Positions 38,144-50,201 of a stretch of DNA of 64,000 nucleotides are shown here, one piece after another. Positions within the stretch are counted from its first letter, which is position 1, and each line of letters starts with the position of its first letter. Origin of the DNA: a virus. The stretch covers positions 1-64,000 of the IMG/VR virus record IMGVR_UViG_3300025418_000694, one strand, 5' to 3'. Below the pieces are notes generated by a model. That model made no database searches and was not told the DNA's origin. It saw only the letters and a program-made list of their open reading frames with translations. Both the position numbers and the translations under genes were made by a program.

Positions 38144-38476
38144 ATGGAAAATGAAGTAGATGTGCTGCTTAAGCGCCTAAAAGAATTGGGCGTAGAGGCT
38201 AAGCCCGTTCGTGTCAATGAGCGCCAAAAGGCTACGCTACAAAAAATTGTAGAGGCTGATGTCGCTATTAAAGAAGCGCGGGAAACTATCAAGCAGGCTA
38301 CAGAAAATTGGCGCGTATCTAGGGAAACACTAGACCGCCTATTAGTAGAAGCCCGTAAGATGAAAGTAACCCAAGCAGAAATTGGCAAAGCCCTTGGTAT
38401 TAGCAATGGCTCTGTATCAAGTAGGACAATTACGGCACGCCGTAGAGTCCGTAAAAGAAACCGCACCAAGAAATAA
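38144..38476 (+). CDS. Coiled-coil plus helix-turn-helix DNA-binding protein
   Basis: GGAGG RBS before ATG at 38144; VTQAEIGKALGISNGSVSSR HTH. Confidence 0.75.
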   Translation: MENEVDVLLKRLKELGVEAKPVRVNERQKATLQKIVEADVAIKEARETIKQATENWRVSRETLDRLLVEARKMKVTQAEIGKALGISNGSVSSRTITARRRVRKRNRTKK

Positions 38477-45095: not shown

Positions 45096-45412
45096 TGTCT
45101 AATAAACTTACAGACCTGTACGAAAAAGAAATGGTAGGCGCTGAACTTACGAATAAAGCGGTGGTAATCAAATCTAAACACCTAGAGGGCAGTAAGTATA
45201 TTGTCCTTGCCGTTCGTAAAGTTCCAGCAGAACCTCTCTATGATGAGCGAGATGTTGAGAAAACAACTCCTATTTATCACCGCCCATATATTGTATGGCA
45301 GGTGGATAAAAAGACTATGCGACCTATGAGTGGAGAGTATGCTCTGACACTAGAGGAAGCAGAGGAAGTCTATGAAATATATGGGAATAAAAAGAAGTTC
45401 TTAATCGTTTAA
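45095..45412 (+). CDS. Hypothetical protein, paralogue of 44648..44938
   Basis: YEKEMVG..L.N...KSKHL...IVLAVR...TLEEAE. Confidence 0.7.
   Translation: MSNKLTDLYEKEMVGAELTNKAVVIKSKHLEGSKYIVLAVRKVPAEPLYDERDVEKTTPIYHRPYIVWQVDKKTMRPMSGEYALTLEEAEEVYEIYGNKKKFLIV
45383..45409 (+). promoter_or_regulatory. P7: GGGAAT-N17-CGTT inside the 3' end of a CDS
   Basis: GGGAAT at 45383, CGTT at 45406, 30 nt before ATG 45439. Confidence 0.75.
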
Positions 45413-47713: not shown

Positions 47714-47836
47714 ATGGTTGATGACGACCCTTTTGATGAAGATATAGATATTGAAGAAGATTGGATTGAGGAAGATGACGAAGAAGAAGTCGAGTGGGAA
47801 GATGAAGAAGATTTCGGAGAGTATATTGGAGAGTAA
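47714..47836 (+). CDS. Hyper-acidic 40-aa peptide
   Basis: MVDDDPFDEDIDIEEDWIEEDDEEEVEWEDEEDFGEYIGE; purine-rich leader. Confidence 0.55.
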   Translation: MVDDDPFDEDIDIEEDWIEEDDEEEVEWEDEEDFGEYIGE

Positions 47837-48002
47837 TCCCAATTACGTTACAGTAGAGGAGTTTACTCAAAGATACGCCAATGCTCTTGGCGGTTATCTA
47901 GCAGGGTCTTTTCCTAATGGAGAGACTCACGTAGTAGATTTAATGGTAAGCGCTTCCTGTTTTGCTGAAGCGTCGTTCTATTTGTTTGATAACTTCTTTT
48001 AG
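47802..48002 (+). CDS. Hypothetical protein
   Basis: Likely start MKKISESIL; last ORF of the plus-strand block. Confidence 0.55.
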   Translation: MKKISESILESNPNYVTVEEFTQRYANALGGYLAGSFPNGETHVVDLMVSASCFAEASFYLFDNFF

Positions 48003-48009
48003 TAGAAAC

Positions 48010-48127
48010 CACAGAAGGGCGTTAAAGCGCTTTCCTGCCTTTCCACGCTAAGGGCGGTCATGACCTTGTAATTGTTTTTTATCATATTTTGGGCAATTAC
48101 AGGCGAGCCGTACCTGCGCCTTATGTG
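48010..48127 (+). ncRNA. Candidate three-way-junction RNA with kink-turn and pyrimidine loop
   Basis: P1, P2 and P3 stems and tandem G.A/A.G pairs after a 3-nt bulge, read by hand. Confidence 0.6.
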
Positions 48128-48129
48128 AG

Positions 48130-48159
48130 AAACCCCCCGATTCGTTCACGGGGGGTTTT
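48130..48159. terminator. Bidirectional terminator between the early block and nrdJ
   Basis: AAACCCCCCG/CGGGGGGTTTT. Confidence 0.85.
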
Positions 48160-48164
48160 ACTAT

Positions 48165-50201
48165 TTACTGATTGTCTTTAATCAGTTTAACTTCACACGC
48201 GTCTGTCGTACAGTAAGCCTCTCCAACTGCGTCATAAGCCATGCCAGCGTACACGCCAGCAAAGTCTATTGGAAAGAGAGTCATACGATAATTCTCATAA
48301 TCATCTTCAGTAATTTGAGTGTAAGGCATTTGGTTATAGACCATGTTTCCTGAAGGTAAGAAAGAGATAGTCTTTAATTGACCGTCATACAAATGTAGAA
48401 CAGTTCCAACATCTTTAGATTCCGACTCTGGATTAAAAGAGACAGTTACAGAGACAGAATTGTCACTCCAATAACGTTGAGCTGTGGCAGCTAGAGCTAC
48501 CTTTTCATAGATAGAGACATCTTTCTCAGAGCGTTTAGCATTAGATTTGACTGGAAAGTAGACTACAGAGGTAGTATCAGGAGATTCCATAGCAGGTTCT
48601 ACTTTATATTGAGCCATCTTAAAGAGAGGAAGCATTGGATCATTGTTTCCAAAGCGGATGGCACGTAGGAAGTATTCTCCACCAACAGACCAATGAACTC
48701 CTGGACTCTCACCTGCCAAGATAGAGACAGTTCCCGAAGGCTTTACAGTTGTAGTCTTAATTGACTCACGGATACCAAGCCACTCTGAATAGCCCTTGTC
48801 ATAACTTTGGATAGTGCCGTAGCCCTCATCCATCCATTGACGCAAGGCTGGTAGCCCTTTGTTATCTGCGAAGTTAGCCACACCTGACATGGAAGTTCCA
48901 ATACGGCGATTGCGTTGCATGATTGCGTTAGTCTCTTCCCAGTGAGTAGGCAGGAGAGTGACTGTCTTGGCATAGAGATAGGCAAACTTAAGAGTTCGCT
49001 TAAAGTCATCTAAAGAGTCATGGCGGTTGAGATAAGTCTCAACGAGCGTACAACACTCATAGGATTCAAGAGACTGTTCGGCACATGGGTTATATCCAGA
49101 AGCGCGCCAGTCTTTATTGTTGATTGGGTCAGCCAAGCGACCATACTTACGAGTGACATCCATCCAGATAACCCCAGGCTCACCATTGAGGGCAATGCCA
49201 TCAATAATAGAATCCAAGTTATCGCCAACATTTACCTCTACGGAGTTGTTAGACATCCAAGCCCAGCCAGGCTTATCAGCATCGTAGGAGTTTCTTTTTG
49301 GGAATACTTTAGGGTTCTTTAGATTTAAGAAGGTTTGATCATCCAGTCTACCCATTAGAAGCTCAGCTGAGCGGCGGACGTTACCAGAGACCACGCATAC
49401 TCCGATTAGGTTACCCAAATCAGCAATGTCTACTCTAGAAAGCTTCTCTCCAGCCTTATTCTTGAATATAGAACGGATGTGCTTGTGTAATCTTTCAAGA
49501 GGCTCTGGGCCTGCAGCTGTGCCGCCAAATGTTTTGATTGGAACGCCTGCTGGACGTACTAAACTGTAATCAAACTTATACTTAGGCTGGTCTGGCTTTA
49601 GATACGAGTTGATTAGCAAAGCAACAGACTCAACCCATCCCTCACGGGTATCAGCTACCTGGTATACCGCCTCCTCATCAGTTGGCTGGTAAATAGTAAA
49701 GTCTTTATCAGCACCCTTGTCATCAAAGCCAACACCCACACCTAGCATTGAGGCTTCCATTAGGAAGGCAAATGGCTTGGCTGGATCGTTCTTTGTCATA
49801 GACGCAGTTGATACAAAAGAACAGTTTTGGAGAGCTGCTGAATTGCGCTGCTCATTTACAAGGGGAGTTCCCATTACCCATAGACCGCGTCCTGGTGGAG
49901 TCCACTTTAGAGTAAACAAGCGGTCAAAGGCTTCTTTAGCAGAAGCTTGAGCTTTAGAATCATTCCAAGGAAGACGGTTGGTTTTGCAATGGTCTTTCTG
50001 TAGAGAATACATACCGTTGATGACTCTCTCACAGACATCTACCCAAGTCTCTTTTGTGCCGTCCTCTTTAAGTCTAGAGTAGGTTCTAAGGAAGGTAATC
50101 TCACCGACTGAGTTTCCAGCGGCATCTTGATAGCCCCAAGGGACTTTCTTAGACCGATAACCTGAGACGAATTCCTCTGCTAGACGAAAGGACAATGCCA
50201 T
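48165..50201 (-). CDS. nrdJ: Class II (adenosylcobalamin) ribonucleoside-triphosphate reductase
   Basis: TPPGRGLW, LQNC, GNVRRSA, NPCAEQ.L...ECCTL, KPSGTVS, C-terminal CTTDAC. Confidence 0.95.
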   Translation of the reverse strand: MALSFRLAEEFVSGYRSKKVPWGYQDAAGNSVGEITFLRTYSRLKEDGTKETWVDVCERVINGMYSLQKDHCKTNRLPWNDSKAQASAKEAFDRLFTLKWTPPGRGLWVMGTPLVNEQRNSAALQNCSFVSTASMTKNDPAKPFAFLMEASMLGVGVGFDDKGADKDFTIYQPTDEEAVYQVADTREGWVESVALLINSYLKPDQPKYKFDYSLVRPAGVPIKTFGGTAAGPEPLERLHKHIRSIFKNKAGEKLSRVDIADLGNLIGVCVVSGNVRRSAELLMGRLDDQTFLNLKNPKVFPKRNSYDADKPGWAWMSNNSVEVNVGDNLDSIIDGIALNGEPGVIWMDVTRKYGRLADPINNKDWRASGYNPCAEQSLESYECCTLVETYLNRHDSLDDFKRTLKFAYLYAKTVTLLPTHWEETNAIMQRNRRIGTSMSGVANFADNKGLPALRQWMDEGYGTIQSYDKGYSEWLGIRESIKTTTVKPSGTVSILAGESPGVHWSVGGEYFLRAIRFGNNDPMLPLFKMAQYKVEPAMESPDTTSVVYFPVKSNAKRSEKDVSIYEKVALAATAQRYWSDNSVSVTVSFNPESESKDVGTVLHLYDGQLKTISFLPSGNMVYNQMPYTQITEDDYENYRMTLFPIDFAGVYAGMAYDAVGEAYCTTDACEVKLIKDNQ

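What the first reader, a model, noticed from the sequence alone, without database searches (positions are those of the whole stretch)
48010..48159. Candidate novel ncRNA: three-way junction with a canonical kink-turn and an anti-Shine-Dalgarno-like loop
Hand-folded from the sequence. P1 is CACA..AGGGCGT (48010-22) with GCGCCTT.TGTG (48116-27). P2 is AGCG/CGCT presenting the loop CTTTCCTGCCTTTCCA (two CUUUCC copies). P3 is AGG-GCGGT with GCCGT.CCT, then a CAT bulge, tandem G.A/A.G pairs, C.C and a long stem (CTTGTAATTGTTT/GGGCAATTACAGG), followed by a terminator. The 3-nt bulge plus tandem GA/AG is the textbook K-turn. Inference: the loop is complementary to GGAAAGG-type RBSs (37550, 43651; near-match GGAAGGCAG before the AAA gene). 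It could silence leadered early or host mRNAs while sparing leaderless ones.
Basis: partly seen in the sequence, partly recalled or inferred. Interest (0 to 1): 0.75.

Follow-up and report, generated by a model that had tools for sequence, protein, structure and literature searches.

The report
New kink-turn RNA family in actinophages
The hand-drawn fold is real: this about 120-base stretch belongs to an uncatalogued family of small folded RNAs carried by phages of actinobacteria, whose fixed three-armed core displays variable loops that often copy the end of the ribosome's 16S RNA; what the RNA does has not been tested.

Summary
Window 48010-48127 (+) folds as a three-way junction. It has a kink-turn consensus in arm P3 and a CU-rich loop on P2, and a bidirectional terminator follows.

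It is one member of a family of at least 69 distinct sequences found here. About 70 are uncultured phage contigs. A few lie in Actinomycetota chromosomes, one of which holds 7 copies. No Rfam 15 family matches, whether AT-rich or GC-rich copies are searched.

Covariation is strong in two separately collected sets: 95% of cells are paired, and 15 of 21 pairs show compensatory changes. Two U.G wobbles are invariant or nearly so, and they fix the + strand.

The link to nrdJ is only synteny within one clade. Elsewhere the RNA sits in tRNA arrays, replication modules or head modules.

The core is constant, while the P2 and P3b loops vary. In 23 of 36 and 11 of 28 members a loop repeats at least 6 nt of the 16S 3' tail, against about 5 and 3 after shuffling.

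Only about 44% of members keep the canonical kink-turn G at position 2n. No L7Ae-type protein was found.

The best reading, still untested, is a stand-alone RNA that displays anti-Shine-Dalgarno-like loops. Other 16S-tail-mimic RNAs in actinophages were noted earlier in this scan; whether they are related is unknown.

The parts
48000..48002 (+). Stop codon (TAG, followed by a second TAG) of the last + strand ORF of the early block. The RNA begins 8 nt later.
   Evidence: The ORF's C-terminal part is conserved in L098, L206, L314 and L431.
48010..48022 (+). P1 5' strand: CACA, a GA internal loop, then AGGGCGU. The last two pairs, G48021-C48117 and U48022.G48116, are invariant in the family.
   Evidence: G-C and U.G are kept in 37 of 37 sequences and in all 28 distinct sequences.
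48023..48025 (+). J1/2 junction strand UAA. Across the family G-U-(U/C)-A-A is nearly invariant.
48026..48049 (+). P2 hairpin: a 4-bp stem AGCG/CGCU with the 16-nt loop CUUUCCUGCCUUUCCA. The loop contains CCUUUC, which is identical to part of the 16S 3' tail.
   Evidence: All 4 pairs covary. Loop analysis.
48050..48050 (+). J2/3, a single conserved A.
48051..48058 (+). P3a 5' strand: AGG, G, CGGU. AGG is invariant and the next five positions pair.
   Evidence: The N:N pair is C-G in 21 sequences, G.U in 20, A-U in 16 and A.C in 9.
48059..48064 (+). Bulged strand of the kink-turn: L1-L3 CAU, then G(1b) A(2b), then C(3b).
   Evidence: Family counts are: L3 is U in 61 of 66; the -1b.-1n pair is U.G in 64 of 66.
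48065..48103 (+). P3b, the non-canonical arm: a 13-bp stem (4 G.U pairs) with a 13-nt U-rich loop. The arm varies in length across the family (10-39 nt between the GA motifs).
48104..48106 (+). Non-bulged strand of the kink-turn: C(3n) G(2n) A(1n).
   Evidence: 2n is G in 29 of 66 sequences and U in 36 of 66.
48107..48115 (+). P3a 3' strand GCCGU-A-CCU, with A48112 bulged. ACCUGC is nearly invariant in the family.
48116..48127 (+). P1 3' strand: GCGCCUU, then A, then UGUG.
48131..48163 (.). Intrinsic terminator: AAACCCCCC, a 9-nt loop, GGGGGGUUU and a T-run. It can be read on both strands and is shared with the convergent nrdJ.
   Evidence: The tool's scan missed it because its loop is longer than 8 nt.
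48165..50201 (-). Convergent nrdJ-like ribonucleotide reductase. It is a neighbour by synteny only and is not part of the RNA.

Best explanation
Window 48010-48127 (+) encodes a stand-alone structured RNA of about 118 nt. It belongs to a previously uncatalogued family of actinobacterial phages and a few Actinomycetota chromosomes.

Shown:
- A constant three-way-junction core: junction letters G-U|U/C-A-A, A|AGG and ACCU|GC, and two conserved U.G wobbles.
- A kink-turn or kink-turn-like module in P3.
- Two variable hairpin ends (the P2 loop and the P3b loop) that are pyrimidine-rich and often reproduce 6-8 nt of the host-type 16S rRNA 3' tail (CACCUCCUUUCU).

Inferred:
- In this phage the RNA is made as the last element of the + strand early transcript. 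The nearest promoter-like GGAAT-N18-GTT site is about 2.6 kb upstream. The transcript is ended by the terminator at 48131-48163.
- The rigid core holds the loops single-stranded, so that they pair with purine-rich Shine-Dalgarno/start regions of mRNAs and keep 30S subunits off them.
- The core may also be a handle for an unknown protein.
For: Family and fold:
- Pattern scans plus covariance models found 36 + 33 matches, which with five bacterial copies make 69 distinct sequences.
- Set A3: 94.7% of cells are paired, 15 of 21 pairs show double changes, and the covariation score is 0.55 against 0.17 after shuffling and at most 0.125 when partners are slid.
- Set A5 was collected with a different junction pattern: 95.6% paired and a score of 0.66 against 0.18.
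- A MAFFT-only alignment recovers 19 pairs, 13 of them compensatory.

Strand: the U.G pairs are invariant or nearly so, and the model hits fall on one strand only.

Stand-alone gene:
- It sits flush between tRNAs in phage tRNA arrays.
- One bacterial genome has 7 copies. Each has its own terminator, and five share about 110 nt of conserved sequence immediately upstream.
- Most copies whose 3' flank was read are followed by a terminator.

Loops:
- 23 of 36 members share at least 6 nt with the 16S tail, against a shuffle mean of 5.4 and a maximum of 13 in 2000 shuffles.
- This was replicated in the second set: 11 of 28, against a mean of 3.1 and a maximum of 9.
- The motif sits in P2 in some members and in P3b in others.
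- A carrier genome's 16S ends in GGAUCACCUCCUUUCU.
- Copies within one genome differ in their loops but not in their core.
Against: - No target, transcript or binding has been shown.
- 8 of 36 and 10 of 28 members have no loop match of 5 nt or more.
- In the window GAAAGG is not enriched, and predicted loop pairing to start regions is only about 2 kcal/mol better than to random windows, with a selection bias in favour of start regions.
- A plain base-pairing RNA would not need about 25 near-invariant core letters, so the core probably does something more.
- Related sequences are not independent, so the shuffle tests overstate significance.
Confidence: 0.4

Rival explanations
1. Protein-binding decoy or RNP. 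The core (kink-turn plus junction) and the 16S-tail-like loops would mimic the 3' end of 16S rRNA to titrate a factor that recognises it. Candidates are a toxin endoribonuclease that cuts UCCUU-type sites, or a ribosome-maturation or hibernation factor. Alternatively, the core is the handle of an unknown effector and the loops act as guides.
For: - There are about 25 near-invariant letters and two conserved U.G wobbles. These are typical of protein or tertiary contacts.
- The design is a constant scaffold with swappable loops.
- The loops are identical to the 16S tail, rather than merely complementary to some one mRNA.
- The RNA sits at many unrelated genome positions, like an independent 'moron'.
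- From memory, some actinobacterial MazF toxins cut the anti-SD UCCUU.
Against: - No conserved neighbouring protein gene was found in the contexts compared.
- No L7Ae-family protein was found in the phage or in 4 carrier genomes.
- Many members lack a tail-like loop.
Confidence: 0.22
2. Catalytic or ligand-sensing RNA. The invariant junction and internal loop would form an active site or binding pocket (a new self-cleaving ribozyme or an orphan aptamer), and the loops would be incidental.
For: - The pattern of an invariant unpaired core with freely varying stems and loops is that of ribozymes and aptamers.
- The scattered intergenic positions in phages, including tRNA arrays, resemble the distribution of small ribozymes.
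Against: - No match to any Rfam ribozyme or riboswitch, even at E up to 10.
- The bacterial copies look like separate small genes, each with its own terminator.
- In the window and in two bacterial copies there is no downstream gene to regulate.
- The loop identity to the 16S tail exceeds what composition gives.
Confidence: 0.12
3. Cis-acting mRNA element: a 3'-end stabiliser or processing signal of the upstream operon, or an RBS-sequestering leader of the next gene.
For: - In many loci it starts within about 0-12 nt of the stop of a same-strand ORF.
- In several loci a same-strand gene follows without a terminator, and a loop could pair with that gene's RBS (L098, L419, L443, L450).
Against: - It occurs between tRNAs.
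- In a bacterium it occurs as separate units, some convergent with the next gene.
- In the window it precedes only a terminator.
- No single neighbour is shared across the family.
Confidence: 0.1
4. Not an RNA at all. The conserved letters, such as the palindrome GGTCATGACC, would be a DNA site for a protein.
For: GGTCATGACC (48056-48065) is a perfect 10-bp palindrome.
Against: - Compensatory changes keep RNA helices, not DNA words.
- The conserved U.G wobbles would be A-C on the other strand.
- The palindrome is lost in most members, for example GGTCATGATGG.
Confidence: 0.02

Closest known systems
C/U-rich-loop regulatory sRNAs of Gram-positive and actinobacteria (S. aureus RNAIII and RsaE/RoxS type; 6C RNA of actinobacteria). 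Named from memory; 6C is in Rfam.
   Same: Small stand-alone RNAs, often ended by an intrinsic terminator, that expose pyrimidine-rich hairpin loops able to pair with G/A-rich ribosome-binding sites.
   Different: - No sequence or structure match to 6C or any other Rfam family.
- This family has an invariant three-way junction and a kink-turn-like module.
- It is mainly phage-borne.
- Its loops copy the 16S tail itself (CCUUUCU, CUCCUUU) rather than being plain C-runs.
Kink-turn-containing junction RNAs (SAM-I, lysine and c-di-GMP-II riboswitch aptamers, T-box stem I; U4 snRNA 5' stem-loop). From memory.
   Same: A kink-turn is placed in one arm of a multi-helix junction. The core is conserved and the peripheral stems vary.
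   Different: - No Rfam match.
- It is not in a 5' leader in the window, in tRNA arrays or in the convergent bacterial copies.
- No expression platform overlaps P1.
Box C/D K-turn guide RNAs of archaea and eukaryotes
   Same: AUGA ... GA type K-turn (CAUGAU in many members), and a constant K-turn scaffold with variable single-stranded segments.
   Different: - No box D CUGA and no second C'/D' motif.
- The hosts are bacteria.
- No L7Ae-family protein in the phage or in carrier genomes.
Other uncatalogued actinophage RNAs with a 16S-tail-mimic loop, noted earlier in this scan (e1-5842652, e1-5921440, e1-5842644)
   Same: Actinobacterial phages; a constant multi-helix core with swappable arms; one loop copies the end of 16S rRNA.
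   Different: Those RNAs are described as about 240-310 nt, in Gordonia phages between recE and recT. No shared sequence was found by the index. Whether they are related to this family was not established.

Membership tests
Kink-turn (structural motif) | A Watson-Crick C stem, then a 3-nt bulge on one strand. | tested here: met
   CGGU/GCCG followed by the bulge CAU. The C stem covaries. The bulge is C-A-N in all 66 parsed members and L3 is U in 61 of 66.
Kink-turn (structural motif) | Tandem sheared G.A (1b.1n) and A.G (2b.2n) pairs opening the NC stem. | tested here: inconclusive
   By sequence the window copy has GA opposite GA. Across the family 1b G, 2b A and 1n A are kept, but 2n is G in only 29 of 66 members and U in 36 of 66. 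U at 2n covaries with U at 3b. The geometry cannot be seen from sequence.
Kink-turn (structural motif) | The helix axis kinks, either induced by Mg2+, by tertiary contacts or by an L7Ae-family protein. | not testable with these tools
   No PF01248 protein was found in the phage or in 4 carrier genomes. Folding was not measured.
Any Rfam 15 family (including cobalamin, SAM-I, T-box, 6C, YrlA, hammerhead, twister, 5S, SRP, tmRNA) | A covariance-model match at or near the family's gathering score. | tested here: not met
   There were 0 hits at gathering score in the whole window. Only 4 chance-level hits (E 1-9), to terminator-like parts, appeared at E up to 10. In GC-rich and tRNA-array copies only tRNAs were found.
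tRNA / tmRNA | A cloverleaf or tRNA-like domain detectable by ARAGORN. | tested here: not met
   No tRNA or tmRNA in the window. In tRNA arrays the RNA fills a gap between called tRNAs and is not itself called.
Anti-SD / C-rich-loop base-pairing sRNA | Exposed loops complementary to Shine-Dalgarno sequences. | tested here: met
   At least 6 nt of identity to the 16S tail in 23 of 36 and 11 of 28 members, above shuffles. The feature is not universal.
Anti-SD / C-rich-loop base-pairing sRNA | Demonstrated pairing with, and repression of, target mRNAs. | not testable with these tools
   Only weak in-silico enrichment. The best candidates are the start regions at 38144 and 40212.
Riboswitch (cis-regulatory aptamer) | It lies in the 5' leader of the gene it controls, with an expression platform overlapping the aptamer. 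| tested here: not met
   The window copy is followed only by a terminator and a convergent gene. Some copies lie between tRNAs. Two bacterial copies are convergent with the next gene.
Box C/D sRNA | Box C RUGAUGA with box D CUGA, plus a host L7Ae/Nop5/fibrillarin system. | tested here: not met
   The 3' strand reads (C)GAG or UAG, not CUGA. No PF01248 protein was found.

The most novel reading that the evidence does not exclude
This would be a phage-borne, programmable 'display scaffold' RNA. An invariant kink-turn/three-way-junction handle, bound by an as yet unknown host or phage factor, would present exchangeable loops that imitate the ribosome's own anti-Shine-Dalgarno tail. The phage could then re-route host translation, for example away from SD-led mRNAs, or disarm a factor or toxin that targets the 16S 3' end. 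It would spread as an independent RNA 'moron' among actinophages and occasionally into host chromosomes.
Probability: 0.15. Interest if true: 0.85.

Novelty: new variant of a known kind. Interest (0 to 1): 0.68.

Why it matters
Well-supported structured RNA families that are absent from Rfam and specific to phages are few. This one has unusually clean covariation, a conserved core of about 25 letters, and a kink-turn in hosts where no L7Ae-type binder was found.

Its loops repeatedly copy the 16S rRNA tail, and it lies among phage tRNA genes. Both features point to the translation apparatus, an area where phage RNA-level takeover in actinobacteria is almost unexplored.

If the loops act on ribosome-binding sites, or decoy a factor that recognises the 16S tail, this would be a compact modular tool of phage-host conflict and a ready scaffold for engineering. 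If the core proves catalytic or ligand-binding, it would be a new ribozyme or aptamer class.

The alignments and models built here (A3, A5, R2) make each of these ideas directly testable.

Tried and rejected
- nrdJ linkage and a B12-riboswitch idea. Only L002 and L066 of 80 nrdJ loci have the RNA. Five complete relatives lack it. In many relatives the operon ends directly in the terminator. No cobalamin model hit.
- BLAST and nhmmer with the window sequence alone found one homologue.
- Mimicry of 16S helix 45. There is a 10-nt identity, UAGCCGUACC, with the actinobacterial 16S. However, that stem covaries freely in the family, and ACCUGC does not match the actinobacterial h45, so I judged it coincidence.
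- L7Ae-type partner: none found.
- Cultured phages. BLAST of a GC-rich member found nothing. Model R2 found nothing in Streptomyces phage Faust, Rhodococcus phage Trina or Mycobacterium phage Phabba.
- Wider bacteria: 4 of 61 genomes in the search of the carrier and its relatives (the carrier itself plus 3 relatives) and 0 of 150 other Actinomycetota sampled have it, under strict filters.
- A sigma-70 promoter next to the RNA: none found.
- GAAAGG enrichment: none.
- Target prediction: weak.
- Literature: no description found.

Full report
**What is in the window.**
The finding lies in a 162-nt gap. On one side is the stop codon (48000-48002) of the last + strand ORF of the early block. On the other is the stop of a convergent ribonucleotide-reductase gene, 48165-50201 on the - strand. 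The 181-nt region is more stable than shuffles, with z = -3.7 and 0 of 200 shuffles as good. The hand-drawn three-way junction costs -34.4 kcal/mol against -36.8 for the MFE. P2 is weak thermodynamically. The hairpin and T-run at 48131-48163 read as a terminator on both strands. There is no tRNA and no Rfam family here, at gathering score or at E up to 10.

**Finding relatives.**
The window sequence alone found one homologue, in L002. That homologue already showed compensatory changes in P2 and a shortened P3b with the kink-turn letters kept.

Exact and gapped DNA patterns then gave ten sequences, aligned as A1. A covariance model built from A1 (R1) found a divergent member it was not trained on, L066 at 52 bits. 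In L066, P2 and P3a are fully re-written yet still paired.

A looser pattern plus nhmmer opened a much wider family. Strict two-gap patterns then returned 29 viral loci with junction GUUAA and 32 with GUCAA. All 32 of the GUCAA loci score 42-76 bits with model R2. In all there are 69 distinct sequences.

**Is the fold real?**
- Set A3 (36 sequences): 94.7% of cells pair, 15 of 21 pairs have changes on both sides, and the covariation score is 0.55. Shuffled partners give 0.17 and slid partners at most 0.125.
- Set A5 (28 distinct sequences, collected with another junction pattern): 95.6% paired and a score of 0.66 against 0.18.
- Both of these alignments are fitted to the model. I therefore also aligned 37 sequences with MAFFT only. 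RNAalifold recovered P1, P2 and P3a, with 13 of 19 pairs compensatory.
- The junction-closing pairs G-C and U.G never vary. The U.G pair next to the bulge is kept in 64 of 66. AGG/CCU at the base of P3 is essentially invariant (36-37 of 37; all).
- The pair after the bulged A runs C-G, G.U, A-U, A.C.
- The wobbles, and the one-strand model hits, fix the RNA on the + strand.

**The kink-turn.**
The window copy has the textbook sequence: C stem, bulge CAU, G.A, A.G, a C.C at 3b.3n, then Watson-Crick pairs. Across the family 1b G, 2b A and 1n A are kept, but 2n is G in 29 of 66 and U in 36 of 66. U at 2n goes with U at 3b, usually with one letter fewer on the non-bulged strand. About half of the family is therefore kink-turn-like rather than canonical. 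Whether these copies kink is not known. No L7Ae-family protein is encoded by this phage or by four carrier bacteria.

**Where it occurs.**
- The first 13 loci share one synteny: pyrimidine-dimer glycosylase, a 91-111-aa protein of unknown function, a small acidic or conserved ORF, the RNA, the terminator, then convergent nrdJ.
- Only 2 of 80 nrdJ loci have the RNA within the 3-kb flanks fetched, and 5 complete relatives lack it. In several relatives the operon runs straight into the terminator. It is therefore an accessory insert and not an nrdJ element.
- Other members lie flush between tRNA genes: L398 between tRNA-Lys and tRNA-Met, and two copies in L421.
- One follows a DnaB-like helicase gene. 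One lies between the minor-capsid and following head genes. Others sit among WhiB, integrase and VWA genes.
- One Actinomycetota MAG (G006) holds 7 copies on four contigs. Each has a terminator and five share about 110 nt of conserved sequence immediately upstream. They lie near housekeeping genes such as trigger factor.
- Three further genomes among the 60 relatives of G006 searched have one copy each, which with G006 gives 4 of 61. None of 150 other Actinomycetota sampled has one, under strict filters.
- Rfam finds nothing in the GC-rich copies either.

**The loops.**
P2 and P3b end in pyrimidine-rich loops; in the first set the P2 loops total U 228, C 189, A 95, G 74. In 23 of 36 members one loop shares at least 6 consecutive letters with GAUCACCUCCUUUCU. 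Shuffled loops give a mean of 5.4 and a maximum of 13 in 2000 shuffles. In the second set it is 11 of 28, against a mean of 3.1 and a maximum of 9.

The matching piece differs between lineages: CCUUUCU, CUCCUUU(C), ACCUCC, UCCUU. It sits in P2 in some members, in P3b in others and in both in a few. A carrier's 16S rRNA ends in exactly this tail. Copies within one genome keep the core and differ in their loops.

Caveats apply. Relatives are not independent, and a quarter to a third of members show no such loop.

**How it most likely works.**
Shown: a conserved, independently occurring structured RNA with a constant core and variable, often anti-SD-like loops.

Inferred: in this phage it is transcribed at the end of the early + strand unit. 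The last GGAAT-N18-GTT promoter-like site is at 45384, and no sigma-70-like site lies nearby. The loops would then pair with purine-rich start regions. In-window support is weak. GAAAGG is not enriched. The best predicted partners are the start regions at 38144 and 40212, at about -15 kcal/mol, which is near the 1st percentile of random windows.

The size and invariance of the core suggest an added role, so protein handle, decoy, catalysis or ligand binding are kept as rivals.

**Novelty.**
No Rfam family and no paper found describes it. Earlier notes of this scan report other actinophage RNAs with 16S-tail-mimic loops. I could not show that they are the same family.

**Limits.**

Noticed in passing
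window 47714-48002: Two overlapping + strand frames. One is a 40-aa highly acidic ORF (47714-47836). The other (47751-48002) has a C-terminal half conserved in L098, L206, L314 and L431, but its N-terminal half is just the lysine-rich alternate frame of the acidic ORF. The true start, or a frameshift joining the two, is unresolved.
   Followed up: partly
L005/L006 5546-5695 (- strand): Close relatives of L066 carry, at the same spot after the last ORF, a different folded element in place of this RNA. Its closing helix is GCGUUGGG/CCCUAACGC, and CU-rich stretches (UUUCUUGCUUC, CGCCUCUAC) lie in its interior, before the terminator. It may be an analogue.
   Followed up: partly
L089 5266-5337 (= L002): A tRNA-Trp gene is inserted between the RNA's terminator and nrdJ, on the nrdJ strand.
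   Followed up: no
G006 copies: L473, L474, L475, L476: In five of the seven copies the repeated unit is longer than the RNA. It includes about 110 nt of conserved upstream sequence, including a small hairpin (CCGCAUACUUGCGG). A box reading AGCGTCGGAGGACTCG(A/G)ATGTGT(T/C)ACAC recurs both upstream and downstream of copies. This may be a promoter or a mobile-repeat structure.
   Followed up: partly
window 48056-48065: GGTCATGACC, the bulged strand of the kink-turn, is a perfect 10-bp palindrome. It is lost in most family members, so it is probably incidental.
   Followed up: yes
L483 (16S of G006), 3' end: The actinobacterial 16S helix-45 5' strand, UAGCCGUACC, is identical to 10 nt of the commonest P3a 3' strand of the family. 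I judged this coincidental because that stem covaries freely.
   Followed up: yes
window, both strands: GGAAT-N16-20-GTT occurs 25 times against 9.8 expected, and 0 of 100 shuffles reach 25. The sites are concentrated on the + strand between 35.5 and 45.4 kb.
   Followed up: partly
L509 5719-5819; L367 and L448: In one GC-rich subgroup the RNA sits inside the head-morphogenesis module. In L509 it follows terminase, portal and the minor capsid protein. L367 and L448 share a conserved pair of large upstream ORFs that I did not annotate. This is far from the early-gene context seen in the window.
   Followed up: partly
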